A stretch of DNA of 64,000 nt from a bacterium. Its GTDB lineage: Bacteria > Patescibacteriota > Patescibacteriia > SG8-24. The stretch is taken from contig JAKAKZ010000004.1 of NCBI GenBank assembly GCA_021824285.1, forward strand, positions 225 to 64,224. Direction: 5' to 3'. Below, piece after piece: positions 43,827 to 60,600 of the stretch (positions within the stretch are counted from its first letter, which is position 1; each line of letters begins with the position of its first letter). The position numbers were made by a program, and so were the translations under genes. The notes beneath the pieces are model-generated. The model did no database searches. It saw only the letters and a list, made by a program, of their open reading frames with translations, and was not told the DNA's origin.

Positions 43827-43915
43827 GGAGGGTTGCGCCGAATGGTAAGGCAACAGTTTGCTAAACTGTGACCTCGAAAGGGGTCTTATAGGTTCGATTC
43901 CTATACCCTCCGCCA
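43827..43915 (+). tRNA. tRNA-Ser (anticodon GCT), class II with long variable arm
   Basis: Acceptor GGAGGGT/ACCCTCC, anticodon stem ACAGT/ACTGT with loop TTGCTAA, variable arm GACCTCGAAAGGGGTC, T-arm ATAGG-TTCGATT-CCTAT, encoded CCA. The D-arm is slightly irregular in my hand fold. Confidence 0.7.
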
Positions 43916-44164: not shown

Positions 44165-44230
44165 TTCCGGCGGAGGGGGTGAGATTTGAACTCACGGTGC
44201 CTTTCGGCACGGCAGTTTTCAAGACTGCTG
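44165..44230 (-). pseudogene. second tRNA-Ser-like 3' fragment (anticodon arm, variable arm, T-arm, acceptor 3' strand), sequence-variant paralog
   Basis: Reverse complement reads GCAGT-CTTGAAA-ACTGC CGTGCCGAAAGGCACC GTGAG-TTCAAAT-CTCAC CCCCTCC. No matching 5' acceptor strand upstream. Confidence 0.45.
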
Positions 44231-44349
44231 CCTTGTTCGGCTCGACAATAATCTGAAGGTCTCGCCGAACACCAGGGCAGCCAATGCTGCCCGCAGACGC
44301 TGCGTCAACTCGCGTCCGCCCACTCGGCCACCCATGTTTACTTTTAAAG

Positions 44350-44434
44350 CGGAGGGGGTGAGATTCGAACTCACGGACCCTTGCGGGTCAACAGTTTTCA
44401 AGACTGTCCTCTTAAACCGCTCGAGCACCCCTCC
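44350..44434 (-). tRNA. tRNA-Ser (anticodon TGA), class II
   Basis: GGAGGGG-TG-CTC-GAGCGGTTTAA-GAG-G-ACAGT-CTTGAAA-ACTGT-TGACCCGCAAGGGTCC-GTGAG-TTCGAAT-CTCAC-CCCCTCC-G. CCA is not encoded. Confidence 0.75.
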
Positions 44435-44489: not shown

Positions 44490-45245
44490 CTATCGGCCTA
44501 AACCTGGGCCGCCGCGCAAGACGGCCAAGGCGTACACTTGGCGCGCTCCTGCGGTTTTAAGCGCTGCGGCGCAGTCGTTCAAGGTAGCCCCGGAAGTTAG
44601 GACGTCGTCCACCAACAGGCAGGATGGGGGGACGCTCTGGCCAAGCCGCGCGGCAAAACTGCCGGCCCGCAGGCGGCGGCGATCAGCTTCGGGCGTGGCG
44701 GCCTGCCGCCGCAAAGAGAAGCGGCGGCGCAGCAATCCCACCTCGCATTCGGTGCCGAAATGCTCTGCAAAGGCGCGGGCCAGAACCGCCGCCTGATTGA
44801 AGCCGCGCAGGGCCAGGCGATACGGATGGAGCGGCACCGGCACGGCGACCGCCAGGGGCGCCAGTCCACGCCAGAACGGCGATGAATCCCAAGCTGCGCG
44901 GCAGAGGCCAAGAAGGGCACGGCCTTCCGCGAGGCCACCCTCGTACTTCCAGCGGCGCAGCAGCGTGCCCAGCGCCGGTTCCGCGTACGAACCAAGATAC
45001 ACGGCCCCATCGAGCGGCGACTTTCCGCACAAGCGCCGACCGCAGCGGCCGAGCAGCGCCGTATGCCGACCGCAGCCGGGACAAACAAAAACGGCCGCCA
45101 GGCGGCCGCTGATCTTGGCTCGACACCCGTCGCACATGACCGGCCCTTCGGAACCGCAACCGGAACAGCGGTCAGGAAAGACCGCCGCGAGTACCGTCCT
45201 CAATAATTCCTTTTCTCTCCCCAATCCACGGAATCCGTCTTCCAT
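44490..45245 (-). CDS. comF: ComF-family protein (competence, phosphoribosyltransferase domain)
   Basis: N-terminal Cys4 zinc finger (CSGCG...CDGC...CPGCG) and the PRTase motif LLVDDVLTSGATL. Confidence 0.8.
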   Translation of the reverse strand: MEDGFRGLGREKELLRTVLAAVFPDRCSGCGSEGPVMCDGCRAKISGRLAAVFVCPGCGRHTALLGRCGRRLCGKSPLDGAVYLGSYAEPALGTLLRRWKYEGGLAEGRALLGLCRAAWDSSPFWRGLAPLAVAVPVPLHPYRLALRGFNQAAVLARAFAEHFGTECEVGLLRRRFSLRRQAATPEADRRRLRAGSFAARLGQSVPPSCLLVDDVLTSGATLNDCAAALKTAGARQVYALAVLRGGPGLGR

Positions 45246-45847
45246 ACGCCATCGGCTAACTTCATGACAAGTGCGGCATCCTGATAAAACAGCGAGGCAG
45301 TGCCGTCGGCCAGCGATTCGCGGCGCTGTGTCGTGACTGTGGCCTTGGCGATACCTCCGTCCTTATCGAACAGCTGAAACTGGACCGACAGGGCCCTGGT
45401 CGTGACGCCGTAGAATTCGGCGTTGACCGCCGACCGCTCCTTCTGCGCCGCCACGTAGGCGTCAGTCTTGGAAGCCAGTCCGGAAGTCATAAGCGGCTTC
45501 AGGTCGAGCAGGTTGGAGTAATCAGCAGTGTTCGAGAAACTGCCGTAACGTTCGACGAAAGCCATGGCCAGACGGCGGGCATCGGCCCGCTCGTCCACCG
45601 TAACGGCCGGCTGGGCCGGCTGCGGTTGGGGCTGCGGCTTGGGGGCAGGCGTGATATCCGTGACCGTGCCGCCGGCCGCGCCCCCGCTCGACGGCAAAGC
45701 CGCCGTACCGCCCTGTTCGGACGGTGCCGGCACGTTGACCGTTTCCGGAGCCTGTTGGGTCTGCCGCAAAAGCAGCAGCGCCAAAGCCGCCAGCAGCAGC
45801 AGGACGACGACGGCAATCCCGATTTTCTGACCGCGACTTAATGCCAT
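45200..45847 (-). CDS. membrane-anchored protein with PQPQPQP linker, possible VirB8/TcpC-like NTF2-fold periplasmic domain
   Basis: 215 aa with N-terminal TM (IGIAVVVLLLLAALALLLL). The VirB8-like assignment comes from position and topology only. It overlaps comF by 46 nt. Confidence 0.45.
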   Translation of the reverse strand: MALSRGQKIGIAVVVLLLLAALALLLLRQTQQAPETVNVPAPSEQGGTAALPSSGGAAGGTVTDITPAPKPQPQPQPAQPAVTVDERADARRLAMAFVERYGSFSNTADYSNLLDLKPLMTSGLASKTDAYVAAQKERSAVNAEFYGVTTRALSVQFQLFDKDGGIAKATVTTQRRESLADGTASLFYQDAALVMKLADGVWKTDSVDWGEKRNY

Positions 45848-45901: not shown

Positions 45902-47797
45902 TCAGGTCTTCATTTCCTTGGCCCGTTGGGCGGCCTCAAACTCCTTCTTGGCCTGCTCGATTTCCAGTAGCTGCTGCGGGTTCGTGGTGACGACCTGGTC
46001 CTCGGCATAGGAGGCCACGACCTTGATGGCCGCGTGCTTCATGCCGGCGAAGAATATGCCCTCGCCCACCCCGCCCTCAAGCAACAGGTATTTCTCCCCC
46101 TCGGTCAGCATGAAGGTCTTGGCGATGTTGTCGATAGCCGCCGGCGACTGCTTCAGAAGCAGCTGCATGGCGGAGTTGGTCACGATGGCCTGGCCGTAAG
46201 GCGAGCGCAGGAAGTCGTTGACGTCCTGGGTGATGGTCGTCACGCCGAGATAGTATTTGCGGCAGCGCTTCACGAGCGCGAAGATAAACTTGGCGGAGTC
46301 CTCGTGCTGCATGAGCCACCAGGCCTCATCAATCACCAGGATGCGTTTCTTGCGCTCGGAGCGGACCACGTTCCAGATGTAGTTGACGATGGCGTAGACC
46401 GCGAGCGGGCGCAGCTCGTCCTCCAGGTCACGGACCGAGAAGACGACGAGGAGGTTCTGCATGGCCACGGTGGTCGGCGAGTTGAACAGGCCGGAGAACG
46501 TGCCCTCGGTGAACTTCTTGAGCTTGATGACGATGTCCTTCGTGCCTTCCATTCCCTCCAGAACCTCAATGAAGTCCTGCATGATCGGCGGCTCGACGCG
46601 GGCCAGGTCGGCGTCCGGCGTGATGTCCTTCTTGGCGTAGGTTTCGAGCAGGGCGCGGTCCAGCACGGAGTCCTCTTGCGGCGTGATCGTGCCGAGCATG
46701 ATGCGCAGCAGGCCCTTTACCGTGATGACCGCGCTGCGGATGATATCCTCGACCGAAACCTCCTCCCCCACCGGCCGCGGCAGGTCGAACGGGTTGATCT
46801 TGGCGTCGGAGGCCAACGAGATGTTGATGTAGGTCCCGCCGACCGCGTCGGACAGGTGTTTGTATTCCATTTCCGGGTCGATGACGATGACCTCGGTGCC
46901 CATCATGAGCGAGCGCAGGATCTCCAGCTTCACGGTGTAGGATTTGCCCGCGCCGGAAGTGGCGAACACGATATAATTCGCGTTCTGCATGGAGAACCGG
47001 TCGAACAGGATCAGACTGTTGTTGTGGCGGTTGATGCCGAAAAGGATGCCGTTGTCCGAGGTCAGGTCCGCCGAGATGAACGGAAACGAGGAGGCGCACG
47101 GCGACGAGTTCATGTTGTAGGTGATCATGAGCTCGTCGTTGCCGAGCGGAATCGTGGAATTGAATCCCTGCTCCGCGGTGTAGAAAACGCGCTTGGTGTA
47201 GATCAGCTTGCCGCCGAAAATGGACTCAACGTCCTCGCTCAGCTTGTCGAGGGCCTTCTTGTCCTTGGCGTAGACCGTGACGTAGAGGGCAAACTGGAAG
47301 AAGTGCTCCGTGCCCTGGGTCAGGCTGTCGCGGAGGTCCTCGACGTCGCGCAGGGCCTGCTCGGAAATCGGGTCGCGCGGCTTGCCCTTCTCGGCATCTG
47401 AAAGGATGGTCGCCTCGAGCACGCCGGCTTTCTTCTTGAGCTGTTTCAGGATGACGGGCGCCTTCACCGGATAGAAGAACATGGCCACGTCCAGCGGGTA
47501 GTTCATGTTAATCACCGGCGAGAACCAGCCCAGCGAGATGTAGCGGGGATATGTGACCACGAAGATGGTGCGCAGGAAGGTCTCGCCGAGCTGGACGAGC
47601 GTCGGGTCGACTTTCATGCCCGCCGGCGCGATGAGGTCACGAATGGAGACGACGCCCTTGCGGTAGACGCGCTCCTCCTCCAGGAGCTCGCGCTCGCGCG
47701 AGATCTTTTCGGTCTCCTGCCGCTTCTTCACCTCTGCCGCCGTGTCCTTCTTCGGAGGCGGCGCGACAGCTCCTAATTGTGCGGGATTGAAGGCCAT
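45902..47797 (-). CDS. virB4: VirB4/TrbE-family T4SS ATPase, C-terminal 631 aa (Gram-positive PrgJ/TcpF type)
   Basis: Walker A FATSGAGKSYTV, Walker B RILVIDEAWWLM, and the conserved GETFLRTIFVVTYPRYI block. Confidence 0.85.
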   Translation of the reverse strand: MAFNPAQLGAVAPPPKKDTAAEVKKRQETEKISRERELLEEERVYRKGVVSIRDLIAPAGMKVDPTLVQLGETFLRTIFVVTYPRYISLGWFSPVINMNYPLDVAMFFYPVKAPVILKQLKKKAGVLEATILSDAEKGKPRDPISEQALRDVEDLRDSLTQGTEHFFQFALYVTVYAKDKKALDKLSEDVESIFGGKLIYTKRVFYTAEQGFNSTIPLGNDELMITYNMNSSPCASSFPFISADLTSDNGILFGINRHNNSLILFDRFSMQNANYIVFATSGAGKSYTVKLEILRSLMMGTEVIVIDPEMEYKHLSDAVGGTYINISLASDAKINPFDLPRPVGEEVSVEDIIRSAVITVKGLLRIMLGTITPQEDSVLDRALLETYAKKDITPDADLARVEPPIMQDFIEVLEGMEGTKDIVIKLKKFTEGTFSGLFNSPTTVAMQNLLVVFSVRDLEDELRPLAVYAIVNYIWNVVRSERKKRILVIDEAWWLMQHEDSAKFIFALVKRCRKYYLGVTTITQDVNDFLRSPYGQAIVTNSAMQLLLKQSPAAIDNIAKTFMLTEGEKYLLLEGGVGEGIFFAGMKHAAIKVVASYAEDQVVTTNPQQLLEIEQAKKEFEAAQRAKEMKT

Positions 47798-47800
47798 ACG

Positions 47801-48502
47801 TCAGATTTCGGTACCGGAATCGGTGACCCGGAGCTTGCCGGGGTCCTGGATCTTCTGCGTGTCGTAGGAATCAGGATTGTAGACGCGGTAATACAGCTCG
47901 ATGAGGCCCTGGGTGTCGAGCGTCACGGCCGACAGGCCCATGCTGCGGAGCGAGCCGACCATGCGGTCGGCGCGGGTCATGAGATCGCCGCGCTGGCGCT
48001 GGAAGCGCTCCTCGGCCAGACGCACCGCGGCGCCGGGCATGAAAGCGGCCTGCAGGCGCTCGAAGAAGCTCTTCTGCCGGTCGGAAAGCGGATTGTACTG
48101 CACGACGACGAAAAACTGCTTCTGCATGATCTGGCCGAGCGACACGAGTTCCTGCACGAAGGCGCGATAGTCGGCGATCTGCACCTTGAGCAGCTCGTTG
48201 GACTGGGACTTTTCCTGCTCGCGCAGGCGATCAATGTACTTGTCGATGTTCAGGCGCCGCGACTGCACGACAATCTGCAGCGGAAACTCCAGCGAGTTCA
48301 GAAAGGCGACGTACTGCGCGATGATGGCGTTCTGCTCGTCTTCCGACTTGAGCGCAAAATTAATGGAGGACACGAGCATCACGGCGCGCATGGTACCGTC
48401 CTTGAGCACCACCACGCCCTCCTTGATTTCGGCGATGTCCAAGTAGCGCTGGGTGGCAGCGCCCGGTTTCGTGCCGGCAAGTTGCGGTGACTGCATGTCC
48501 AT
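47801..48502 (-). CDS. VirB4 N-terminal region (233 aa), in the same reading frame as the ATPase ORF and separated from it only by TGA plus one codon
   Basis: The block KDGTMRAVMLVSSINFALKSEDEQNAIIAQYVAFLNSLEFPLQIVVQ resembles the N-terminus of Gram-positive conjugative VirB4 ATPases. The stop at 47801-47803 is in frame with the ATG at 47795-47797. Confidence 0.55.
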   Translation of the reverse strand: MDMQSPQLAGTKPGAATQRYLDIAEIKEGVVVLKDGTMRAVMLVSSINFALKSEDEQNAIIAQYVAFLNSLEFPLQIVVQSRRLNIDKYIDRLREQEKSQSNELLKVQIADYRAFVQELVSLGQIMQKQFFVVVQYNPLSDRQKSFFERLQAAFMPGAAVRLAEERFQRQRGDLMTRADRMVGSLRSMGLSAVTLDTQGLIELYYRVYNPDSYDTQKIQDPGKLRVTDSGTEI

Positions 48503-48503
48503 A

Positions 48504-48929
48504 TCACTCTTCGGGGTTGAACACGCCGCCGGTGTTTACGACGAGCGACAGCTCGGCGAGTTTGGACGCGGCCAGGGCCTCCTTCACGATCTTGGGCTTG
48601 GGCGGCGGCGGTGGTGTCTCGCGGACGAAAGCCAGGACTTCGGCGTCGGTCGGTTCCTTATTCCAGACGCGCAATCCGGGCCGACGCGTGGTGAGAATCA
48701 GGTTGAGGACGAAATAATGGAAGGCCTGGCCGTTAATGCGCGTGAAGGCGAAAACGCTGAAGAGTATGAAGGTCGGGATACCGACGAGCAGGAACAGCGC
48801 GAAATCGAACATCTTGTAATACGCGAACTCCAGGCCCAGCATGGCCAATTCAATAAGGAACTGACGGGCCGTCAGCGGACCAAGAATCTTGTCCTCGGTA
48901 TCGATGAATTGGGGAACGGCGTATTTCAT
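48504..48929 (-). CDS. VirB3/PrgI/TcpE-like small 2-TM protein
   Basis: 141 aa with two adjacent TM helices after EDKILGPLTARQFL and a Pro-rich tail. It sits immediately upstream of VirB4, as in Gram-positive T4SS operons. Confidence 0.4.
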   Translation of the reverse strand: MKYAVPQFIDTEDKILGPLTARQFLIELAMLGLEFAYYKMFDFALFLLVGIPTFILFSVFAFTRINGQAFHYFVLNLILTTRRPGLRVWNKEPTDAEVLAFVRETPPPPPKPKIVKEALAASKLAELSLVVNTGGVFNPEE

Positions 48930-49052: not shown

Positions 49053-51110
49053 TCAGCCGAAACGGAGCGTCCGATTCAGGGTCATGATGGCATCGAACTG
49101 CGGTTTGCTGAGGTTGGGCTGCTTGGCGGCCTCGCGCGCGGCAATCACATCCAGCACCGGCTTGCCCTCGAGACTGGCGCGAAGCAGCTCCAGATACAGA
49201 CGGTTGACTTCGGACTCGTGCCAGGCCTTTATCCCCTGCTGTTTTACCTCAAAGCCCTGATCCTCGAGCAAGTCGATCTTATCCTTGATCTTGAGCGTGG
49301 CCTCCGTCGGTTCCTTGGAGAGCCGGATGAAGTCCGCAAGCGTCATGGAGCGAAGTTCCTCGACCGGACCGGTGAGGCGCGGGGCCGCGATGATGTCGGC
49401 AACTATCGGTTTCTGCGTGGCGACTGGCTGGACCGGCGGTGCGGGCGGGCGCTGGGGCACGGAAACATAGCCCGGACCAGAAACGTGGGGCGCGGACGGT
49501 CCGCTCGTCGGCAGGTTCATCGGCGGCGCGGCCGTGGCGGTCGGCGGTTGCGGCGGTTCCGGCCTGGGGGCGGACGGCGGAGCCGGCTTGGCCGGCGGCG
49601 CTGGCGGCACAGCTGGCTTTGGCGCCGGCGGCGGCGTCAGAGGTGCGCTCGGCGGAACTGGAGGCTTCGGGGCCGCGGGGGCGGCGGTCGGAGCCGATTG
49701 GCCCACGGACGGTTGCTTCATGGCCGGGCCGGTGAGGTCCGGCAAGACCGGCTCTGGTTTCGGCGGCGGTGCGGCCGGGACGGCAGGACGCGGCGGAGCT
49801 GCCGCAGCGACAGCGGCTGACGGAGCTGCGGGCCTGGGGGCCGCGACAACCGGTACGGTGACCGGTGCGGAGGGAGCTTTCGGTGCCGGAGTCGGTGCGC
49901 TCCCCGGCGGCATCTGGATACCGGAACGCTGGACCAGATCCTGGTAGCGACGGTCTAGATCCTGCTTCTCCAGACGCTCGGTGCGCTCCTGCTGGAGCAG
50001 ATGGCGGCGCGCCTGTTCGGCTACGAATTTCTCCTTGTCCGCCGCGACCTGGCCGACGGCCTGCGACAGGAACTGCTGGCGCAGCGGCTTAAGCGCGGTC
50101 ATGACGCGGTCGGCGTCTGCCTCGGATAGGCCCAAGCCGCCAGTGGCGACCTGCGAAGTAAGTTTGGATTTCGTCTCCAGCGCGTCGCGCAGGTCGCGCA
50201 GATAAAGCGCGGATGCCATGCGAAAACGGTTGAGCGACTCTGGCGTCGGGCTTGGCAAGGCGGCCGCCTGCACGGCCCGTTCGACGAAGAAATCGAGGTC
50301 GCCGGCCGGCTCGGCGGCAGGCTCCATCGTCCTGCGCAAGGCCTCAACCTCCTTGATGTCCTCGACCTGGACTGTTTCGAAGGTGGGGACAGTGGGGAGG
50401 TTTGGAGGTTTGGAGGTTTGGAGGTTTGGAGTGGCCGTCGGCGCTTCCGCAATCGGAGGGATGACGACGGGTTTCGGTTTTTCGGCGGCCAGCACCTCAT
50501 CGGGAACGACGACGATCGCCCTCGCCTCAAGCGCCTTCATCTCCTCTTCCGCAGCCGCGACAACAAGCGCGGCCTCATCGCCGTTCAAACCAACGCCCGA
50601 CGTCTTCGCCGGACCCATGAGCGTCTCCGCCAGCTGTTCCACCTTGCGGCCGCCGAGGGCCACGGAGGCCAGAACCTTATCAAGGCGGCGGTCCAGGATG
50701 TCGTCGGAAACGACCACGCCGGACTTGCGGCGGATGACCGCGACGACGTCCGATGCCGCGACCTTCTTTTTGAAGATGTTAGGGTCGCCGCCTTCCTGCA
50801 GGATGAGAGCGGGGATGTCGGAATTCAGCCAATCCGCGATGTCCTGAAAATCATAGCCGAGTATCTTTTGGGCCACGTCAGGATAGCGGCCGTTCCCCTT
50901 GAGCAGGTCGCGCAGGAAGGCGAGGAAGGAGGACGGGGTAGTGACGCGGAAATAAACGTCAAACAGGGCCTCGGCGACGGCGAAGCGCTGACCCTCGTCG
51001 ATCAGCGGGAAAATTTCCTCGGCGTACCGCTCAGCCAACTGGGCGTCGAAAATGTGCGCCCGAACCTGGTCGGGCAGGCCACGGAGCTGTTCAAGTGAGT
51101 ATTTCGGCAT
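49053..51110 (-). CDS. hypothetical 685-aa protein with central Pro/Ala-rich low-complexity region
   Basis: No TM. Globular N- and C-terminal regions. It contains an in-frame copy of the family-B repeat encoding PNLQTSKPPNLP. Confidence 0.6.
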   Translation of the reverse strand: MPKYSLEQLRGLPDQVRAHIFDAQLAERYAEEIFPLIDEGQRFAVAEALFDVYFRVTTPSSFLAFLRDLLKGNGRYPDVAQKILGYDFQDIADWLNSDIPALILQEGGDPNIFKKKVAASDVVAVIRRKSGVVVSDDILDRRLDKVLASVALGGRKVEQLAETLMGPAKTSGVGLNGDEAALVVAAAEEEMKALEARAIVVVPDEVLAAEKPKPVVIPPIAEAPTATPNLQTSKPPNLPTVPTFETVQVEDIKEVEALRRTMEPAAEPAGDLDFFVERAVQAAALPSPTPESLNRFRMASALYLRDLRDALETKSKLTSQVATGGLGLSEADADRVMTALKPLRQQFLSQAVGQVAADKEKFVAEQARRHLLQQERTERLEKQDLDRRYQDLVQRSGIQMPPGSAPTPAPKAPSAPVTVPVVAAPRPAAPSAAVAAAAPPRPAVPAAPPPKPEPVLPDLTGPAMKQPSVGQSAPTAAPAAPKPPVPPSAPLTPPPAPKPAVPPAPPAKPAPPSAPRPEPPQPPTATAAPPMNLPTSGPSAPHVSGPGYVSVPQRPPAPPVQPVATQKPIVADIIAAPRLTGPVEELRSMTLADFIRLSKEPTEATLKIKDKIDLLEDQGFEVKQQGIKAWHESEVNRLYLELLRASLEGKPVLDVIAAREAAKQPNLSKPQFDAIMTLNRTLRFG
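50394..50423. repeat. family-B repeat unit (ggaggtttggag x3) embedded in frame inside the CDS
   Basis: Same unit as the intergenic 27831-27913 element. Confidence 0.5.
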
Positions 51111-51135
51111 GATATATGGCCGTTAGACCATGGTC

Positions 51136-54100
51136 CTAGCGACCGAGCTTCCGTTCGATGGCGTCGAGCAGGCGGGTGACTTGGGACTTGTCCGATTGGG
51201 ATGAATCCTTGAGCTTGTCGACCAGACCCTCGAGCGCCGAGGTCTGATCAGCGCCGGCATCGTTGATCGCCTCAATCAGCTTGTCGAAATTCTCGGGGGT
51301 GGGCCGGACACTGACATCATCCAGCGCATCTTTCACGGCTCCAGAAACGGATTCGGCGACGCCGGAGAAGGCCCGCTCGATCTCCTTCTTGTCGATCCAG
51401 TCGCGGCCGCCGCGACCGCCCGACGAATCAGAACCGTAGGACCTTGGCGCTTCCGTCGGCCGGGCACCCGGACCGCCCATCTCTTTGAGCCGCGCGCTGG
51501 CGGCCTTCAGGTCTTCAGTGGCTTGCCGCAAGGCTTCGGTTAGTGCTTCTAGTGTCTGCGGATTGGCACCGCCAGTCTTGGCTTTGTCATATTCCTGCTG
51601 GGCCTGCTGGGCCTTATCACCGGCCTTCTTCACCACATCCTGCTGCATACCCGCCTCGGTGGCGTCGAACTTGGGCATCTTGTAGCCGCGCCGGGCAAGA
51701 ATCTCCTCGATCTTTCCGATATTGTCGGCGGCTTCCTGACGCTCCTTATCGATCCGTTCCAGATCGCGTTTCTTCTGAAGTTCACCGCCGTTATAGTCGA
51801 AACTCGGCGTCGCCTGGATGCTGTCGCGCTCCGCGCCGAGCGAGAGGACTTTCGACTTCGCCTCGTCAGCATTCTTGAAGGCGTCCTGCGTTTCGCGCTC
51901 GACGCGCTTACGGTCCTTGACCCCGGACTCCCCGCCTTTCTCGGACACGATCTGCATCACCGGATTATTGATGGAGCGGCTCAAGTCGCGGTTGGCCTCG
52001 GCCCAGCCGCCTTTGATGGCGTCGGTTACCGCTTTGAGAAGCGCCGACTCGTTGGCCGATGCGGTGCCGCTCGCGGACTTCTCGGCCAAGCCGAGCAGGG
52101 CACCGCCTTTCATGCCGTCGATCAGCGCCTGCATGGCCTCCGTCGGCTCCCCGTCCTTGGTCAAGGACGATGCGTCAATCTTGGAAAGGGCCTCCGGGCC
52201 GTTGGACTTCACGAATTCCTGAAACGCAGCCTTGCCGAATTCGCTGCCGAACTGGCCTCCGGCGCCAAGGTCGAAGGCCTTGGCCGCACCGGCGGCATCT
52301 TCAGCCGTGCGGGCCACGGCCTGCCGCGCGTGCAGCGATTCCTCGGGGTGCTCGGCTATGTACTTCTCGTTCTCCTCGCGGTAGGCCTTTTTCTGCTTGC
52401 CTTCCAGCTTGGATTCGACGCGGTCGGCGTCATCCCGGAGGGCCACGTCATTGGCGTATTTGCGGATCTGCGCCTCGGTAAAGTCCTTGGGCTGCTGTTT
52501 GCCCTCACGCACCTCGCGGGCCATCTTGGAAGAGAGCTCCTGCAGCTTGTCCTCGAGAGTCTCCCCTTCTTTCAGGGCTGCCGGATCAAACGCCTCATCC
52601 GGGAAGTTCTTCTTGGCTGCCTCAACCGCGTCATCGACGGTTTTCTTGTCGGCGCCAGCTTCCTTCATGCGGCGGATGACCTCATGCGCGCCGCCGGCGT
52701 CATGGACTTTGGCGTTGCGCTTCTCCAGGGCCTGCTTGAGCGCGGCCACGCGTTCCACCTCGGTGAATTCCGCGGCGCGGCCGGTGAGGATGGCCTCGAT
52801 GCTGTCTTTGCTGAGCTCCTTCTGGGCCTTGGCGTAGATGCCGGCCTGACCTTCCTTGCCGGTCTGCTGAAGCTGACGACCGATGCGCCGGCCTTCAGCT
52901 GCGGCCTCTTGGCCGGATTTCACGATGCCGGCGCCGAGACGGCCGCCGGTGACGCCCTGGACAGCGCGGCCGGCTGCCTGACGCAGGCCGCCACGGAGCA
53001 ACGGCGTGACCCCCTCGCGGGCCTTACCGATTTTCTCGGTGTACTGCGCCGTAGTCAGGGCGATGCGCTCCTTGTAGCGGTCATCGCCGGCCTTCATCAT
53101 GGCGCCGACGGCACCGCGCGCGCCTTCCACGCGCTGACGCAGACCGGTCCGCTTGTATATCGCGCCGAGGGCTCCGCCGACGACGGCACCAGGCGCGAGC
53201 TTCTTGGCCCCCGGCAGGCCGCCGCCGAAGCCGCCGCCGCTAAGCTGCTGCGCGAAATCCACGCCCAGATACATGATGGCCAGCGCCATGATGAAACTGA
53301 GCAACGAATCCATTTTCATGAAGTTCGTCCGGAAGACAGCGTCCGCTCCCGATTCCGCATTGAACTGCAGCTGCTTGACGGTGGCCAACGACAGCCAGAG
53401 GAAAAAAGCCAGCACCGGACCGGTGAGGATCTGGGACTGGAGGTTGGACCACCACTTGCCATAGTAGGACTGCGTAGCCTTGAAGGGCATGCCGCGCATG
53501 GCGAAGGCCAGAGGCGAAAAGATGACCACGCCCCAAAGAACGACGATGCGCTTGAGGATGAAGAGCGTCATGATGAGGATGACGCCGCAGGCCGCGAGCA
53601 GGAACAGGCAGGTCGCGAAATAGGTCAGGAACATCGTAAAGGTAGTCTGGGCAGCGGAGAGAGTCAGTCCGGTGCTGTCCGGGCTCATGACGTTCATCTG
53701 CGTGGTGTTCAGCGACGTGATGAGGTTCTGTGCGGCCGCGCCCTTGAAGCCGTTCACGAAAGTCAGCATGACCACCTGACCGATATCGATCAGCACACCG
53801 ACGAAAGTCCGCGAAAAATTCACGAGAATCGCCATGATCAGCAGACGCGAGAGCTTCTTCCCCTTATAGCTGTATTCGTCCATGCCGAGAATCGTCGCGA
53901 ATGCCATCACAAGCATGCTGACCACGATGAGCATGTTGGCCATGTCACGCACGACGAGCCAGCCGGCGGTGACGACGGGATTGTTCACGAAGCTGTTGTA
54001 CTGGATGAAGAAAATCAGCAGTTCGATAAGCAGCGACAGGATCTGGCCGATGGCGAAGGCCAAGGCCTCGAAAACCCAGTAGATGAAGCTCTGGATGAAA

Positions 54101-54384
54101 CCCTGCTCTGTCTGCGCCGGCGGCTTTTTTTCATCGGCGGCGGTATTCGAGGCCGGGGGTGTCGTGGCCGATCCTTGACCTGATCCGCCAGCGGTCTGTG
54201 CGAGCTGGACCGTGCGCACCGCGGACAGGTGGTTCCCGGCGGCCAGTGCCGGACGGGCAAAGTGCGGCAGGACCGAAATCAAAACGCCAAAAACCGCCAC
54301 AGCGGCGATCATCCGCAATGCAGCGTGGCCCGAGGCGCGATGCCGGTTCTGATGGCGCGTGGCTTCGGGTTGGAAAAACAGCAT
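51136..54384 (-). CDS. VirB6/TrbL-like polytopic membrane protein with about 650-aa charged coiled-coil C-terminal extension
   Basis: 1082 aa. The N-terminal 420 aa carry a signal-like segment plus 7-8 TM helices in the TrbL/VirB6 pattern. The C-terminal half is Lys/Glu/Ala-rich. Confidence 0.6.
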   Translation of the reverse strand: MLFFQPEATRHQNRHRASGHAALRMIAAVAVFGVLISVLPHFARPALAAGNHLSAVRTVQLAQTAGGSGQGSATTPPASNTAADEKKPPAQTEQGFIQSFIYWVFEALAFAIGQILSLLIELLIFFIQYNSFVNNPVVTAGWLVVRDMANMLIVVSMLVMAFATILGMDEYSYKGKKLSRLLIMAILVNFSRTFVGVLIDIGQVVMLTFVNGFKGAAAQNLITSLNTTQMNVMSPDSTGLTLSAAQTTFTMFLTYFATCLFLLAACGVILIMTLFILKRIVVLWGVVIFSPLAFAMRGMPFKATQSYYGKWWSNLQSQILTGPVLAFFLWLSLATVKQLQFNAESGADAVFRTNFMKMDSLLSFIMALAIMYLGVDFAQQLSGGGFGGGLPGAKKLAPGAVVGGALGAIYKRTGLRQRVEGARGAVGAMMKAGDDRYKERIALTTAQYTEKIGKAREGVTPLLRGGLRQAAGRAVQGVTGGRLGAGIVKSGQEAAAEGRRIGRQLQQTGKEGQAGIYAKAQKELSKDSIEAILTGRAAEFTEVERVAALKQALEKRNAKVHDAGGAHEVIRRMKEAGADKKTVDDAVEAAKKNFPDEAFDPAALKEGETLEDKLQELSSKMAREVREGKQQPKDFTEAQIRKYANDVALRDDADRVESKLEGKQKKAYREENEKYIAEHPEESLHARQAVARTAEDAAGAAKAFDLGAGGQFGSEFGKAAFQEFVKSNGPEALSKIDASSLTKDGEPTEAMQALIDGMKGGALLGLAEKSASGTASANESALLKAVTDAIKGGWAEANRDLSRSINNPVMQIVSEKGGESGVKDRKRVERETQDAFKNADEAKSKVLSLGAERDSIQATPSFDYNGGELQKKRDLERIDKERQEAADNIGKIEEILARRGYKMPKFDATEAGMQQDVVKKAGDKAQQAQQEYDKAKTGGANPQTLEALTEALRQATEDLKAASARLKEMGGPGARPTEAPRSYGSDSSGGRGGRDWIDKKEIERAFSGVAESVSGAVKDALDDVSVRPTPENFDKLIEAINDAGADQTSALEGLVDKLKDSSQSDKSQVTRLLDAIERKLGR

Positions 54385-54540
54385 GTTTCAGGTTAATTAC
54401 GGCTAATGCGCCGAACTTGCGGCGACGCCGTTTCCTCTCCCTATATCATATCACGAATAAGCTCGGCTGCGGAGAAGAGATGTATACCTAATTTTAGGCC
54501 AATTTCAGGGGGTAATAGAGCGTCAAACACTTATCCACAC

Positions 54541-54578
54541 GGGGACTGTCCCTTTTGCGGCAAAAAGGGACTGTCCCC
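54541..54578. promoter_or_regulatory. two copies of the GGGGACTGTCCC palindrome arranged as cccTTTTgcggcAAAAAggg, upstream of the VirB6-like gene
   Basis: 54541-54552 and 54567-54578. The same 12-mer occurs at 41560-41571 upstream of recG. Confidence 0.4.
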
Positions 54579-54587
54579 TAACTGAAA

Positions 54588-54615
54588 CCGCCGTCCTTAT
54601 CTGGACGGCGGTTTT
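54588..54615. terminator. strong hairpin ccgccgtcc-ttatct-ggacggcgg followed by ttttctt, directly after the giant gene stop
   Basis: The T-tract is better on the plus strand than on the minus strand. Confidence 0.5.
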
Positions 54616-54626
54616 CTTGGTGCTTA

Positions 54627-57600
54627 TTAAGGTTTGACGACGATTTCTCCGGCGAACGTGTCCCAGGCCGTGTTGTAGCTGTCGCAGACGCCGCCGCCGG
54701 CGTTGGTTCCGGTATCCGGTCCGACGCAGAGCCCGTTCGGGTTGGCGACCGTCTTGTTGCCGGCGGAATCCAGCAGCAAGCCGCTGCAGGAACCGCTGCA
54801 CACGCCCCAATAATCCGTGAACTGGACGCGCGGCTTGAAGTGACACATGGAGCCGTCCTGGCACGGATACTTGTTGCCGTCGCAGGCCGGGAAGGTGGAG
54901 AGGTCGGAAGCCGTGCAGGTGTAGAGGATGGATTCGCGGAAGTACCGCGTGACACAGGACTCCGGCGTCTTGCCCCACTCGGTCGTGCCGGCGCAGATTT
55001 CCGTCGGGGCGGCACCAGAGGTGGCCGGCTTGATCACGCCGCGCTGATTCTTGTAGAGGCCCTTGGTCTCCACGTAGTCGGCGCTCACGATATTGGGATT
55101 TTTGTAAGTCGCGCCGTTGGCGTCGAAGCGCTTCTTGACGAGCGGCATGTGGTCCTTATCCGCGTAGCCGTAATAGGTGATGTTAGCCAAGTAGGAGCCG
55201 CCGCCGGCCGTATTGCCCACCTGGCCGCTCACGAAGCCGTCGACGGTCATCGCATTGGTCCCATCCTCTTCGCAGGCCCAATCGTTGACCGACGGATAGC
55301 AGCGCTGGCGCGTCGTGGCGGTAGAGCCCGAACCGATGATTTCCGGCGCAGTCAGGGCGGCGGCGACTTTCGGCTGGCTGTTCGCGCCGGCATCGGCCAT
55401 GACCGCAGTCATGCCCCAACCGGTGCCGGACGACAGACCGTAGGCCGTGCCGGTAAGTCCGTAGCGGCCATAGGACTGCACGAACATCTTCTGGAGCTCC
55501 GCTTGGGTATAAGTGTTGCCGGCGGCGGCGAAACCGACGTCGAACCGCTTGACCGGAGGATTGGTTCCCATCGGGTCGGTCTTCACGAAGCCCTTATTGT
55601 TGTTGTTACCGGCGCCGCCGCGCAGGGCCGACCAGAGCGGCAGACCGGAGGTGTACGGTGCGTCGCTGCCGAAGACACCGTTTGCCGCCGGCGTGGCCGG
55701 GAACACGTGCCCGTAGGGGGCGATGTCCTGGGAAGTCTTATTGTCGGCATCCTCCGGATTGTAGATATCTACCGTAACTCCATAAGGGATGCCCAAGTCG
55801 TTGGCCAGCTTCATCTTGAACTGGTTGGTCTTGACGATGGCCGGGGTGTTGGTCGAGGAGCTGCCGCCCAAATCCGTGTATTCGCGGCACTGCTCGCGGA
55901 GATAGACGGTAACAGTGCCCTCGCGGTTCACGGTCACGCTGTGGTTCCGATCAAGAATTCCGGTGCCGGACGCAAAGATGTCGTGACCGACGCACCAGAG
56001 ACTGCCGATGCTGCTTAGGGTGCCGTTGTCCCAGTTGGCCTGCGCATACATGCAGCCCTTGTCCTTGTCGATGGCGTCAGAGGCCCCGGTGGTGTTCGCC
56101 TGATCGCCGCACTTAAAGCCAGTGGCGTCATAATGCGGCGCGCAGAACGGACTGATGCCGCTACTGGTCCACTCGCCGGTAGACAGGAATTCCGTAGCTG
56201 GCGGCTGCGGCGGGTCCGCGCTCCCCTTCCAGCCAACCTCGAATTTCCAGCCGTTCGATGGCGTCAGCCAGAAATCAGTTATGGCGTTATCGGTAAAGTC
56301 GCGGCTGTAATGCTTAACCGAAATTTTGATGGCCGCGACATCATTGATGCTCAAGCCCACGGAACTGACATCAGAATTGTGGACGTCTTTTGTCGTCCAA
56401 TTGGCCGCAAGCCGCTTTTCGCCCCAAATCCAGGCTGACCAGAACATGTCGTTCCACAACCATGATGGAGGGGCACCGCCAGGATTGTTCTCCAGTTCAT
56501 ACAGGCCGACCTGATACTCATCGGTACACTGATAGTCAGGCGAATTGCTTGTGTAGGCGTCAATACCGCCCGCGAGCATACCGATGGTGCATCCGACAAG
56601 CGGAACCGTGGCGCATGCAATCGCCATTTCAGACGCGATTCTTGCCCAGTTAGGGCAATTCCTAACGGTTGTAGACCAATGATCGGTCCAGATGATGTTT
56701 GAATACTGCCCGGTCGGCCAGCCCTTGGACGCGTACTTGCCCGGCACGTTGACCTTATCGGAGCAGTAGAGCAGCTTGTCGACTCCGGCATCGATGGCCG
56801 GATCGAAACCGGCTTCCGGATACTGGTTATAGATGTCCGGCTGGCCGGAGAGCTGGTCCACCGGGAGCCACTGCAGGCAATGGTACTGGTCCGGCGTGCC
56901 GTTGATGCGCGTGCCGTAGTCCTTGTCGATGCAGATGCCGGTCCAGCCGGTGGCGTTCCGGGCCTTGGTCTTGGCGGAGCAGGAGCCGGTGCTCGCGTCC
57001 GCGCCGGTCGCGGCGCATGACGCGTTGCTCGTGCAGGGCTGTCCGAGTTTGGTGGCGTCGCCCATGGTGCAGACGCTGTTATCCATGGCGGTGCCGACCG
57101 GCTTGAAGACCGAGAAGCCGGGACCGTAATCGGCGCGGCTGTAGGAGCAGTCGCAGGCGTTGTTCAGGCCGGACGAATCGCTGTCCAAGCAGAGATTGGC
57201 GCTCTTGAAATTGGAGATCGGCTGGCTCCGGTTGGAGTAGGTGCCGCCCAAAAGCACAGTCTTGCCGTAGGGCGAGTCGGATTCCGGATAGCCGCGGCAC
57301 ATCATGGAAGCGCCGGCGCTCCGGGTGTCGGCCTTCATGGCCGGACCGCCGAAGAGGTCGAAGGCACAGACGCCGTTCTTGGCCTGGGCGTTGGATTTGA
57401 TGCAGCGGCCGTGGTTCTTGTTCGGATCGGGATCGTCGGTGATGACGCACTGGCTGTCGTTGGTGCAGGTCGTGATTATGCCGCCGACGTTGGAGTCGCG
57501 GACGATCGCGGCAACGTAATCCGGACTGCTGTCCTTGTCCGTGAGCGACAGCAGGGCCTCCGGCGGATAGGCGTTCGGGACGGTGTAGCCGGAAAATTCC

Positions 57601-60600
57601 GGTCCGCGATAGCTGATATCGCGGTCCGCGTACTTGTCCACGGTGAAACGGCCGTCCTCGGGCGAGCGCACGGTGAAGTCCACGCACTTAACGCCGCTCG
57701 CGGTCATCTGATACTGCTGGCAGAGCGCCATGGCGACGCATTGCGACTTCCACTTGGTGGAGCTGTTCTCGTCGTAGACCGGCACGGTCTGGCGGCACTC
57801 CAGCCACTCGGAGCACTCGCGGTCGCGGCGGACCTTCAGAATGACGTTGCCGTCGTTCTTCGGCGGTGCGGCGCTGATGTCACGGCAGACCGCTCCCTCG
57901 CACTTCTCGCCATAGCCGGTGCACTGGCTGTCCGCCGTGCAGAACTTGCCGGATTTGGTGCAGGTCTTCGGTCCGCAATCCGCATCCGCGACGCAGCTGC
58001 TGCCCCAAATATCAGTGCCATTCGAGGCGGTCCGGAAGCAGCGGTGGTCGCAGGCCGGATCGCGGACATTCGCGGCCGCCTCGCAGTTCACCGTGGGCAC
58101 GCGGTCGCTGTTCTTGTTGAGATCCTCGTGGCGATAGGTCGCATAAGAGGAGATGCGCTTCACCGGGACACTGGATTGGTTGAAGATCACGCAACCCTGT
58201 TTGAGCGAAGCCGTGCCGGAACAGGAAGACTTGTCCAACTTGTTGTTGTCCATGTAGTAATAGGCCGTACCCTCCGGGTTGGTGTTCGAGGTCTCGAGCG
58301 GATCGATGAACTCCTCGCACCGATTGAACTGTTCGGGGCACTTGCCGACCCAGCCCTGGTAACCGCAGCCGGTCTGGCCGAGCGCCACGCTGCAGACCGG
58401 CGTGCCGGTCTCGGGGCAGGAGCAGCCAAGCGGTTTATTGCAGGCCGCCGCAAGATTGCAGGAGACGTCGCCCTGCTTGGCGATCGGATAGAGAATGCCG
58501 TTCTGCAGCTCGCCCGGGGCGCAGGGAATCAGGGCCCCACCCGAACTCTTGCGGAACCAGCCGTTGCGCTTGGCGCCATCCGGCATGATGATGTCCTCCT
58601 TGTATTCGCAGATCTTGTCGCCTGGATCCTTGAAGAACTTGAGACCGTCCGCGGAGTTGTACTCCTTGCAGCCGAGCGCGGCCTCGGTGCAGAGCTGCTG
58701 GTCGTACTTGGCTGGGTTGTTCTTGATGGCGACATTGTCCCAGCGGTCAATGACGCCGGCGCCGAGCGAGAGCGTACAGGAGGTCTCGCCTTTCTTCATC
58801 AGGCAGAAATTGCCGGTGGCCGTATCCGTGCACTTGCAGGCGTCGTATTTCTGCGAGGTGCAGCCGTAAGCGCCGAAGGAGCAGGAGTCCACGGTGGTGC
58901 AGACGGCCTGCTGGCCGGATTCGTAGTGCAGGCATTGCTTCTCATAGACCTGGTGGGACTGGCCCATGACGCGACAGCCCACAGCCTCGGCTTTGCACTG
59001 GTATTTGACGTCCGCGGCGAGATACAGGCGCTCATCAGCAGCCACGCGGACGCGGTCGGGCGTGGAGAGGAGACATTTATTCGCGGCACCGCAGTCCGTA
59101 TCCGCACTGCAGAGCTTGTTCGCGTCGTTGGAGCACCGGCCGTCCGGCACGGAGACGTCCCAGCCGTCATAGTGGAAGCGGCAGGAGGTTTCGCCGTTCG
59201 GTACGCGGCAGACGTCTTTCAGCACGGCGGCCGGATTGCCGGAAGTCGGATCTTTGACCTTATAATCGCATGGCGTACCCAGGCCGGTCGCCGGCGAAGA
59301 CAGGCTGCAGACCGCGTTCCAGGTCTCGGAGTACGGGTTCTGCAGGGTGTTCTGTGTGTTGACGTAGGTGCCGCAGCCCACGGCGCGGTCGCGGCAGAGC
59401 TGGCTGAACTGGCGCAGGGTGGAAACCTGGCCCTTGGTGTCGCGGTATTCGCGGCAGCCGAGCATCTGGAGCGGGGCCGGCGTGCCGTCCGGCGCGGTGT
59501 TGCAGGAAGCCGGCGTCTGCCAGGAATTCGCGACCGCGTAGATGTTCTCCTGGACTTCGCGCATCACGAAATTGTCGATGTAGGCTGCCTGACCGGAGGG
59601 GTGCAGGGAAAGCGAGGTCAGGGCCGCATTCAGGAAGATGGGGCCGACGGAATAGAGCTTCCAAGAAGGCGATAGCGTGATTGTCGGCAGGGACGGCGTT
59701 GCCGCGGCGGCCGGCACGACGGAGATGGAGAGATTGCCGCTGCCCCGCGCCCAGAAGCTGAAGGAGTAGGAGCGGCCGGATTTGGCGAGGCCCGCAAGAG
59801 AGCGGCTGGCGGTGGCGTTCGCCGTGATGACGAGCGAGTGTCCGCCGACGACCACCGATTCCGCAGACTGCTTGGCGTCGGCCGCGGGCGTCCAGCCGGC
59901 CGTGCCGGATTCGAAATCATCCAGCGCCACCTGCCGGACGTTGCCGGCGGTGTTGCCCTTGTAGGCGCGGCAGCCGGCCAAGGCCGCGGAGCAGGAATCG
60001 CTGCCGGATGCGGTGAAGCGGTAAACGCAGGTCAGGGTGGTTTCGTTCCAGACGCCGCGGCTGGCTTCGCAGTCGAGTTTCGACTCGGCGATGTCGGTCG
60101 TGCGCGCGGTGATGCGGTTGTAGCGGCAGTCCGCGGTCGCGAGCACGGTCTGCGACAGGCGGCGGTAATGGCGGTTGCCGTCCTGGTCATAGAACTCGCG
60201 ACAGTCGAAGTCGCCCTGCTCGATGTCGGCGCGGGAACAGTAGCCGGTCGTATCCTGGTCGTTGCAGGTGAAGGCCTGCGTCACGGCGCTGCGCGTGAGC
60301 GCGGTGCATGGCGCAAACCCGGCATTGGCGCAGCTGCCTGGCGTGGTGCAGACATCGGAAGCGTTGTGGCCCGCGCTCTGGTCCGGAACCGTCGCGGCGG
60401 TCTTGCGCATGCTCCACTCCTTGATTTCGTAGCCTTGGGTGTCTGATCCTTCCCATGTATAGAAGGTCTGCGTTTCCGGATCCGTCGGCAGCTGGCACTG
60501 CTGCACTCTCTTATAATATGAAACCTGTTCGTTCTCGATATCCGTGAACTCGGAACAGCCGACGTCCGCGGCCGAACAGGCCTGGGCGGTCTTAGGGATG

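What the first reader, a model, noticed from the sequence alone, without database searches (positions are those of the whole stretch)
45902..48502. VirB4 ATPase interrupted by a single in-frame TGA
ORFs 47801..48502 and 45902..47797 are in the same frame, separated only by a TGA stop and a CGT codon before the ATG. The minus-strand reading is ..GTEI * R MAFNPAQ... The upstream 233 aa look like the N-terminal domain of Gram-positive VirB4 proteins, and the downstream 631 aa carry the remainder plus the Walker A and B motifs. Together they total about 865 aa, a normal VirB4 length. Possible explanations are a recent nonsense mutation that would inactivate the system, a sequencing or assembly error, programmed UGA read-through, or a genuine two-polypeptide VirB4. 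TGA is used as an ordinary stop elsewhere, for example in rlmN, so a UGA-sense genetic code is unlikely.
Basis: seen in the sequence. Interest (0 to 1): 0.7.

Follow-up and report, generated by a model that had tools for sequence, protein, structure and literature searches.

The report
Normal two-gene VirB4 of Patescibacteria
The apparent stop codon inside a VirB4 secretion ATPase is the ordinary boundary between two separate genes (a TrsD/TraC-like N-terminal module and a short VirB4 ATPase); relatives across the Patescibacteria keep them separate, and the arrangement is already published.

Summary
The sequence observation is correct. On the minus strand, a 233-aa ORF (47801..48502) ends in TGA, followed by CGT and then the ATG of a 631-aa ORF (45902..47797) in the same frame. 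The two ORFs match complementary, co-linear parts of VirB4 profiles.

It is not an interrupted gene.
- The 120 best homologues of each half are stand-alone proteins: 225-238 aa for the N half and 601-662 aa for the C half.
- In 77 species-level relatives the two genes are always separate. Stop codons are TAA 47, TAG 18 and TGA 12. Relative frames are 22/30/25, which is uniform (p=0.53). Spacers range from 1 to 201 nt.
- The identical junction occurs in three independent assemblies.
- There is no SECIS-like structure and no tRNA-Sec, and TGA is a normal stop in the window.

The gene order PrgI(VirB3-like) - TrsD-like - short VirB4 is the same as trsC-trsD-trsE of staphylococcal pGO1-type plasmids, with the polypeptide boundary at the same place. 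It is already described for Patescibacteria (PMC12102498: 2,272 TrsD homologues, 1,664 next to virB4; essential in Ca. Southlakia). Pfam PF26593 and NCBIfam NF041427 cover the N-terminal protein.

The in-frame relation here is coincidence. Verdict: real feature, ordinary, already known.

The parts
48504..48929 (-). PrgI/VirB3-like small membrane protein (141 aa), first recognisable T4SS gene of the cluster. Its TGA stop is followed by 1 nt and then the ATG of ORF-N.
   Evidence: Pfam PF12666 PrgI, E 5.1e-7, 30.6 bits against a cut-off of 27. Junction GAG TGA t ATG. Same position as the 135-aa gene upstream of trsD in S. aureus plasmid NZ_CP132369.
47801..48502 (-). ORF-N: stand-alone TrsD/TraC-like protein (233 aa), homologous to the first ~140-240 positions of full-length VirB4.
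   Evidence: NCBIfam: VirB4_plasma 3.4e-9, TrsD/TraD NF041427 1.7e-8, CD1110 4.4e-6, TIGR00929 2.4e-4, all at N-terminal profile positions. Precomputed Pfam PF26593 'TraC-like' for the identical protein. The 120 best homologues are all 225-238 aa. Of the 150 best 50%-identity cluster representatives, 149 are 116-443 aa. hhalign to S. aureus TrsD: probability 82%, E 1.1e-5.
47795..47803 (-). Gene junction: TGA stop of ORF-N (47801-47803), CGT spacer (47798-47800), ATG start of ORF-C (47795-47797). This is a tight stop-start junction typical of this operon. The shared frame is coincidental.
   Evidence: Base-identical in three independent assemblies. In 77 relatives: stop TAA 47/TAG 18/TGA 12, frame 22/30/25, spacer 1-201 nt with median 12. 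No unusual RNA structure downstream, z = -0.40.
45902..47797 (-). ORF-C: short-form VirB4/TrsE-type T4SS ATPase (631 aa). It holds the second part of the VirB4 N-terminal region (about residues 45-245) plus the C-terminal ATPase domain (245-604).
   Evidence: NCBIfam conju_CD1110 3e-97, profile positions 180-729/752, 326.7 bits against a cut-off of 325. Pfam P-loop_TraG, AAA_10 and DUF87. PDB 4AG5 VirB4 C-terminal domain, E 2.7e-50, over residues 245-604. The 120 best homologues are all 601-662 aa. BLASTP to S. aureus TrsE 9e-45, aligned from residue 24 to residue 6.
46934..46963 (-). Walker A (P-loop) motif ATSGAGKSYT, ORF-C residues 279-288.
   Evidence: Read directly from the translation.
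46316..46342 (-). Walker B motif ILVIDEAWW, ORF-C residues 486-494.
   Evidence: Read directly from the translation.
45200..45847 (-). Downstream same-strand 215-aa protein with an N-terminal hydrophobic segment and no family match. It is probably part of the same cluster, but its role is unknown.
   Evidence: ORF list. No Pfam hit. Called as a gene next to ORF-C in the ENA contig. Membership of the system is inferred from position only.
49053..63434 (-). Three large same-strand ORFs upstream of PrgI with no family assignment: 685 aa (49053-51110), 1082 aa (51136-54384) and 2935 aa (54627-63434). They are possibly surface or substrate components of the cluster.
   Evidence: called genes; no Pfam hit above threshold. 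Their association with the system is inferred from co-orientation only.

Best explanation
This is the normal, conserved gene pair of the Patescibacteria (CPR) chromosomal type IV secretion system. A stand-alone TrsD/TraC-like protein (ORF-N) corresponds to the first sub-domain of the VirB4 N-terminal region. It is followed by a short-form VirB4/TrsE ATPase (ORF-C) that carries the rest of the N-terminal region and the ATPase domain.

Shown: the two are translated as separate polypeptides in the sense that every relative examined encodes them separately; ORF-N terminates at an ordinary UGA; and the ATG 3 nt downstream is the conserved start of ORF-C.

Inferred:
- ORF-C initiation is coupled to ORF-N termination. 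The same tight stop-start packing links PrgI to ORF-N.
- The two proteins re-associate non-covalently to rebuild a VirB4-like N-terminal domain, which docks the hexameric ATPase onto the VirB3-like PrgI protein in the membrane.

The boundary lies in a region that is a disordered Pro/Ala-rich linker in a rare fused relative. This explains why both the split and the fused forms are viable. That the two ORFs share a reading frame in this genome is a 1-in-3 coincidence.
For: 1. Stand-alone lengths on both sides. The 120 best ORF-N homologues (61-100% identity) are 225-238 aa. The 120 best ORF-C homologues (75-100% identity) are 601-662 aa. Of the 150 best 50%-identity cluster representatives of the ORF-N profile, 149 are 443 aa or shorter.
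2. Junctions in related genomes. All 77 measurable loci among the 80 GTDB species-representative genome loci fetched have two genes. Stop codons are TAA 47/TAG 18/TGA 12, relative frames 22/30/25 (p=0.53) and spacers 1-201 nt.
3. Both halves are under strong purifying selection: 66 invariant columns in ORF-N and 75% or higher identity in ORF-C.
4. The identical junction is present in three independent assemblies.
5. The two halves cover VirB4 profiles in a complementary, co-linear way.
6. The S. aureus pGO1-type plasmid has the same order: 135-aa gene, trsD (227 aa), 20-nt spacer, 670-aa VirB4. ORF-C aligns to TrsE from its N-terminus.
7. Published: TrsD is remotely homologous to the VirB4 N-terminus; there are 2,272 homologues in Patescibacteria, 1,664 of them adjacent to virB4; the gene is essential in Ca. 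Southlakia epibionticum (PMC12102498).
8. A rare fused relative, P0350 (898 aa), joins the two modules through an ~80-aa Pro/Ala-rich linker. It is found in the same PrgI context in three sequencing runs.
9. PrgI to ORF-N has the same packing, TGA-t-ATG.
Against: - No protein-level data exist for this organism, so separate polypeptides, translational coupling and physical re-association are inferred.
- The ORF-N match to the NCBIfam TrsD model is far below its curated cut-off (34.5 against 200 bits), and hhalign probability to S. aureus TrsD is only 82%.
- The AlphaFold model of ORF-N was poor (pLDDT 55). Its best PDB match, TrwK/VirB4, is not significant (E=0.1).
- UGA followed by C is a comparatively leaky termination context (textbook knowledge from E. 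coli studies). A small amount of fused product cannot be excluded in this particular genome.
Confidence: 0.93

Rival explanations
1. Recent nonsense mutation: a formerly continuous ~865-aa virB4 acquired a TGA, which inactivated the system.
For: The two ORFs are in frame and only TGA+CGT apart. One fused relative exists (P0350).
Against: Every one of 77 related species-level loci is split, with varied stops, frames and spacers. All 120 nearest homologues of each half are stand-alone. Both halves are strongly conserved, which is incompatible with a dead gene. The ATG after the stop is the conserved start of the C gene in relatives. The fused form is the rare exception, 1 of 150 clusters.
Confidence: 0.01
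2. Sequencing or assembly error created a false stop codon.
For: None specific. The source is a metagenome-derived assembly.
Against: The junction is base-identical in two ENA assemblies from different samples and in an NCBI genome assembly. The split is the family norm.
Confidence: 0.01
3. Programmed UGA read-through or selenocysteine insertion yields a functional fused VirB4 in addition to, or instead of, the two separate proteins.
For: The frames coincide here. The stop context is UGA-C, known from E. coli work to terminate relatively weakly (general knowledge, not tested here). A fused architecture is viable in P0350.
Against: There is no enrichment of in-frame arrangements in relatives: 22 of 77 against an expected 25.7, binomial p=0.40. 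In-frame relatives use TAA 13, TAG 6 and TGA 3, and one has tandem stops. The 72 nt spanning the UGA and the ~65 nt downstream fold no better than shuffles, z -0.40. No tRNA-Sec is in the window. The only SECIS-like Rfam hit is sub-threshold, on the opposite strand and 1 kb away.
Confidence: 0.03
4. Alternative genetic code (UGA = Gly or Trp, as in Gracilibacteria/Absconditabacteria or Mycoplasma) makes this one ORF.
For: Some Patescibacteria classes use code 25 (general knowledge).
Against: TGA ends 18 of 48 long ORFs in the window, including ORF-C itself and its neighbours. The window has 63% G+C. Relatives end the N gene with TAA or TAG in 65 of 77 cases.
Confidence: 0.005

Closest known systems
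Patescibacteria (CPR) chromosomal T4SS, MPF_FATA-related: PrgI/VirB3 - TrsD-like - VirB4 (Quinonero-Coronel et al. 2025, PMC12102498; Wang et al. 2023 for Ca. Southlakia epibionticum)
   Same: Same phylum-level sources for the nearest homologues: Uhrbacteria, Magasanikbacteria, Falkowbacteria and Parcubacteria. Same gene trio and order. A TrsD-like gene lies directly upstream of a ~630-aa VirB4. The context is chromosomal: recG, comF-like and tRNA genes are nearby.
   Different: Nothing substantive. This locus happens to have the two genes in the same frame with a 3-nt spacer. The large upstream ORFs (685, 1082 and 2935 aa) have no family assignment and were not compared with the published clusters.
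TrsD + TrsE of staphylococcal pGO1/pSK41-type conjugative plasmids (NCBIfam NF041427 TrsD/TraD family; TraD/TraE of pIP501 by name of that family)
   Same: Small VirB3-like gene, then a ~227-aa TrsD, then a ~670-aa VirB4 ATPase lacking the first VirB4 sub-domain. The polypeptide boundary is at the same place: ORF-C residue 24 aligns to TrsE residue 6. ORF-N is homologous to TrsD.
   Different: Sequence identity is low: 24% for the ATPase and about 28% over 122 columns for TrsD. The staphylococcal system is plasmid-borne and conjugative with a relaxase, and its spacer is 20 nt. The Patescibacteria system is chromosomal and, according to the literature, repurposed.
Full-length (fused) VirB4/TraC ATPases: CD1110 family, Mycoplasma ICE Mbov_0397 family, TrwK of R388
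   Same: The ORF-N and ORF-C pair together covers these profiles co-linearly. The ATPase domain matches solved VirB4 structures 4AG5 and 7O41.
   Different: Here the protein is encoded as two genes. The boundary falls inside the N-terminal region (around CD1110 profile positions 140-180), not at the border between the N-terminal region and the ATPase domain.
Rare fused Patescibacteria-type VirB4 (P0350, 898 aa)
   Same: Same modules in the same order and the same PrgI context. It is 48% identical to ORF-C.
   Different: The modules are covalently joined by an ~80-residue Pro/Ala-rich linker. It represents 1 of the 150 best clusters.

Membership tests
VirB4/TraC-type T4SS ATPase (ORF-C) | Walker A and Walker B NTP-binding motifs | tested here: met
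   ATSGAGKSYT at residues 279-288 and ILVIDEAWW at residues 486-494.
VirB4/TraC-type T4SS ATPase (ORF-C) | Sequence match to curated VirB4 models and to a solved VirB4 ATPase domain | tested here: met
   NF045971 conju_CD1110: 326.7 bits against a cut-off of 325, E 3e-97. PF19044: 93.3 bits against a cut-off of 25.8. PDB 4AG5: E 2.7e-50.
VirB4/TraC-type T4SS ATPase (ORF-C) | Complete VirB4 N-terminal region on the same polypeptide | tested here: not met
   ORF-C starts at CD1110 profile position 180 and TIGR00929 position 237. The missing positions are matched by ORF-N. This is the short TrsE-like form.
VirB4/TraC-type T4SS ATPase (ORF-C) | Encoded next to a VirB3-type small membrane protein | tested here: met
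   The PrgI family protein lies two genes upstream.
VirB4/TraC-type T4SS ATPase (ORF-C) | ATP hydrolysis, hexamer formation, requirement for secretion | not testable with these tools
   Needs biochemistry or genetics.
TrsD/TraD - 'TraC-like' stand-alone VirB4 N-terminal module (ORF-N) | Stand-alone protein of ~200-240 aa | tested here: met
   ORF-N is 233 aa. The 120 best homologues are 225-238 aa.
TrsD/TraD - 'TraC-like' stand-alone VirB4 N-terminal module (ORF-N) | Encoded immediately upstream of a short VirB4 and downstream of a VirB3-like gene | tested here: met
   Window gene order. Same in 77 relatives and in S. aureus NZ_CP132369.
TrsD/TraD - 'TraC-like' stand-alone VirB4 N-terminal module (ORF-N) | Match to Pfam PF26593 (TraC-like) | tested here: met
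   Precomputed hit for the 100%-identical protein P0001 and for all listed homologues. The model is absent from the local Pfam copy, so no score was obtained here.
TrsD/TraD - 'TraC-like' stand-alone VirB4 N-terminal module (ORF-N) | Score above the curated cut-off of NCBIfam NF041427 (Firmicutes TrsD/TraD subfamily) | tested here: not met
   34.5 bits against a cut-off of 200 (E 1.7e-8). hhalign to S. aureus TrsD gives probability 82%. ORF-N is a homologue but not a member of the narrow Firmicutes subfamily.
TrsD/TraD - 'TraC-like' stand-alone VirB4 N-terminal module (ORF-N) | Homology to the N-terminal part of full-length VirB4 | tested here: met
   VirB4_plasma 3.4e-9, CD1110 4.4e-6 and TIGR00929 2.4e-4, all at N-terminal profile positions. 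The fused relative P0350 carries the module at residues 2-223. The structural test was inconclusive.
Programmed stop-codon read-through / selenocysteine recoding | In-frame relation and stop-codon identity conserved among relatives | tested here: not met
   Frames 22/30/25. Stops TAA 47/TAG 18/TGA 12.
Programmed stop-codon read-through / selenocysteine recoding | Stimulatory RNA structure or SECIS just downstream of the UGA, and tRNA-Sec | tested here: not met
   Fold z-score -0.40. No Rfam SECIS on the coding strand. No tRNA-Sec in the window. The rest of the genome was not available.
Pseudogene (nonsense-disrupted virB4) | Orthologues intact (fused) while this copy is broken; relaxed constraint on the fragments | tested here: not met
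   77 of 77 orthologous loci are split. Both fragments are highly conserved.
Patescibacteria chromosomal T4SS (MPF_FATA-related, PMC12102498) | No relaxase or conjugative-element hallmarks near virB4 | not tested
   Only the genes from 39 kb to 64 kb were scanned against Pfam, and none is a relaxase. The whole window was not screened systematically.

The most novel reading that the evidence does not exclude
In this lineage and a few close relatives (L001, L006, L044), the TrsD-like and VirB4 genes are in frame and separated only by a weak UGA-C stop and 3-12 nt. Low-level read-through could then produce a minor covalently fused VirB4 isoform, resembling the naturally fused P0350, with its own role in assembly or stoichiometry of the secretion machine.
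Probability: 0.03. Interest if true: 0.4.

Novelty: already known. Interest (0 to 1): 0.1.

Why it matters
The main value is as a caution for annotation. Two adjacent in-frame ORFs that together resemble one known protein are not necessarily a broken gene. Automated pipelines should not flag Patescibacteria trsD-like/virB4 pairs as pseudogenes or merge them.

The T4SS itself matters biologically. [quoted passage not shown]

The comparative data here go slightly beyond the published 'remote homology' statement. Profile coverage is complementary, the boundary is the same as in pGO1 TrsD/TrsE, and a rare fused form carries a disordered linker. Together these support the view that TrsD-like proteins are the detached first sub-domain of VirB4. 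This is incremental, not a discovery.

Tried and rejected
1. AlphaFold2 of ORF-N with a 22-sequence alignment gave pLDDT 54.9 and pTM 0.37, too poor for fold assignment. A Foldseek search of that model against the PDB put TrwK/VirB4 first (7o42_A), but at E=0.1 with no hit at E<=0.001. I treat this as inconclusive, not as evidence.
2. A profile search of ORF-N against PDB sequences found nothing at E<=1.
3. The local Pfam copy lacks PF26593, so ORF-N gave only a sub-threshold TraC_F_IV hit. The family name came from precomputed annotations.
4. I looked for the original TrsD-VirB4 homology statement in Guglielmini et al. 2014 (PMC4027160). The main text does not contain 'TrsD', so the statement is cited only as reported by PMC12102498.
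5. The FEMS review PMC12857230 does not discuss TrsD or a split VirB4.
6. SECIS or read-through structure: the fold is not different from shuffles, and the Rfam SECIS_1 hit is on the wrong strand and sub-threshold.
7. Shine-Dalgarno analysis is uninformative because most genes in the window lack SD motifs.
8. Three of the 80 fetched loci lacked the C gene within the stored stretch (contig ends) and were left out of the junction statistics.
Full report
**Observation.** The minus strand of the window reads ...ACC GAA ATC TGA CGT ATG GCC TTC AAT..., i.e. ...GTEI * R MAFNPAQ.... ORF-N (47801..48502, 233 aa) and ORF-C (45902..47797, 631 aa) are in the same frame, separated only by TGA and CGT.

**Identity of the two halves.**
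- ORF-C matches VirB4-type models strongly: NCBIfam conju_CD1110 at E 3e-97 over profile positions 180-729 of 752, and Pfam P-loop_TraG, AAA_10 and DUF87.
- ORF-C residues 245-604 match the solved VirB4 C-terminal ATPase domain 4AG5 at E 2.7e-50.
- ORF-C carries Walker A (ATSGAGKSYT) and Walker B (ILVIDEAWW) motifs.
- ORF-N matches the N-terminal positions of the same full-length models: VirB4_plasma 110-236/894 at E 3.4e-9, CD1110 11-138/752 and TIGR00929 18-137/792.
- ORF-N also matches a family of stand-alone proteins, TrsD/TraD NF041427, at E 1.7e-8.

The two ORFs are therefore complementary and co-linear with VirB4. The boundary lies inside the VirB4 N-terminal region, not at the border with the ATPase domain. 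The gene upstream (48504..48929) is a PrgI/VirB3-like protein.

**Is it a broken gene?** No.
- The 120 best homologues of ORF-N (61-100% identity) are all 225-238 aa. They come from Patescibacteria sources and are annotated with Pfam PF26593 'TraC-like'.
- The 120 best homologues of ORF-C (75-100% identity) are all 601-662 aa.
- An exhaustive profile search of 1.84 billion cluster representatives found 3,237 relatives of ORF-N. Of the best 150, 149 are 116-443 aa.
- ORF-N is under clear purifying selection, with 66 invariant columns among 22 sequences.

**Junction anatomy in relatives.** A scan of species-representative genomes confirmed 571 related loci, and 80 were fetched. In the 77 loci where both genes are present:
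- the N gene ends with TAA (47), TAG (18) or TGA (12);
- the C gene lies in frame 0, +1 or +2 relative to it in 22, 30 and 25 cases (chi-square p=0.53; binomial test for in-frame excess p=0.40);
- the spacer ranges from 1 to 201 nt, with a median of 12.

Many relatives have TAAtATG-type junctions. In-frame relatives mostly use TAA or TAG. There is therefore no selection for a shared frame or for UGA, which excludes conserved read-through or selenocysteine insertion. The tblastn alignments of close relatives start at residue 1 of ORF-C at an ATG, so the start is conserved.

**Error, recoding and genetic code.**
- The same junction is base-identical in three independent assemblies: ENA ERZ27237563, ENA ERZ27237541 and NCBI GCA_027346945.1.
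- The 72 nt spanning the UGA and the ~65 nt downstream fold no better than shuffled sequence (z = -0.40).
- There is no tRNA-Sec in the window.
- The only SECIS-like Rfam hit is sub-threshold, on the other strand and 1 kb away.
- TGA, TAA and TAG all terminate long ORFs in the window (18/17/13).
- Shine-Dalgarno motifs are missing from most gene starts here, so their absence before ORF-C is uninformative.
- The PrgI to ORF-N junction is equally tight, TGA-t-ATG. TGA-cgt-ATG is simply the packing style of this operon.

**Comparison with the known.**
- A S. aureus pGO1-type plasmid (NZ_CP132369) has the same order: a 135-aa gene, trsD (227 aa), a 20-nt spacer, then a 670-aa VirB4 annotated as a DUF87 protein.
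- ORF-C aligns to that TrsE almost from the first residue of both proteins (query 24 to subject 6; E 9e-45). The ORF-N profile aligns to TrsD with hhalign probability 82% and E 1.1e-5. The polypeptide boundary is therefore shared.
- The literature already describes this. Quinonero-Coronel et al. [quoted passage not shown] They found 2,272 homologues, 1,664 of them associated with VirB4, and report that the homologue in Ca. Southlakia epibionticum ML1 is listed as essential.
- The nearest homologues of the window genes come from Uhrbacteria, Magasanikbacteria, Falkowbacteria and Parcubacteria.

**A rare fused form.** One of the 150 best clusters, P0350 (898 aa), carries the ORF-N-like module at residues 2-223, an ~80-residue Pro/Ala-rich linker, and the ORF-C-like part (48% identity) from about residue 316. 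It occurs in three independent sequencing runs in the same PrgI context. The two modules therefore belong to one functional unit, and the split site corresponds to a flexible linker.

**Mechanism.**
- Shown: this is a conserved two-gene architecture with complementary homology to VirB4, the same boundary as TrsD/TrsE, and tight operon packing.
- Inferred: ORF-N is released at the UGA, and ORF-C is initiated at the ATG 3 nt downstream, probably coupled to that termination.
- Inferred: the two proteins associate non-covalently to rebuild the VirB4 N-terminal domain, which anchors the hexameric ATPase to the VirB3-like PrgI protein. This is by analogy with the VirB3-VirB4 contacts described for diderm systems in the literature cited in PMC12102498.
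- A trace of read-through at the UGA-C context cannot be excluded in this genome, but nothing suggests it is selected.

**What did not work.** The AlphaFold model of ORF-N was poor (pLDDT 55). Its best PDB match was TrwK/VirB4 but was not significant (E 0.1). A PDB sequence-profile search found nothing. The main text of Guglielmini et al. 2014 does not mention TrsD.

**Verdict.** The in-frame relation is coincidence. Interest is low.

Noticed in passing
L086:3001-5697 (also L087, L088); protein P0350: A rare naturally fused TrsD-like+VirB4 protein (898 aa). The two modules are joined by an ~80-residue Pro/Ala-rich linker. It is present in three independent Logan runs, directly after a PrgI gene. 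It is the only long protein among the 150 best clusters.
   Followed up: yes
proteins P0255, P0281, P0296, P0337 etc.: A sizeable minority of ORF-N family representatives are 300-443 aa. The conserved module sits at the N-terminus, so they carry C-terminal extensions of unknown nature.
   Followed up: no
window 49053-63434, minus strand: Three very large co-oriented ORFs lie directly upstream of PrgI: 685 aa (Pro/Ala-rich), 1082 aa and 2935 aa. None has a Pfam family above threshold; the 2935-aa protein gives only a weak CBM_4_9 hit. They may be surface or substrate proteins of the T4SS cluster.
   Followed up: partly
L085 (NZ_CP081497.1 2186441-2188141): The best match of ORF-C in the plasmid collection (37% identity, E 2e-102) is an unannotated stretch of a 2.8-Mb linear Streptomyces sp. 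BHT-5-2 'plasmid p1' record that has only one annotated feature. This is much closer than any Firmicutes VirB4.
   Followed up: partly
window 44179-44242, minus strand: A partial tRNA-like match (Rfam tRNA, 29.4 bits, right at the gathering score, model positions 9-63) lies between two tRNA-Ser genes (43827-43915 + and 44349-44434 -). ARAGORN did not call it. It may be a tRNA remnant.
   Followed up: no
window 44490-45245, minus strand: A ComF-like protein (double zinc ribbon plus a phosphoribosyltransferase domain, both just below Pfam cut-offs) overlaps the end of the 215-aa gene downstream of VirB4 by 46 nt. It may be co-transcribed with the T4SS genes.
   Followed up: no
whole window (gene starts sampled): Most gene starts lack any Shine-Dalgarno-like motif within 25 nt upstream. 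This suggests SD-independent or coupled initiation is the norm in this 63% G+C Patescibacteria genome.
   Followed up: partly
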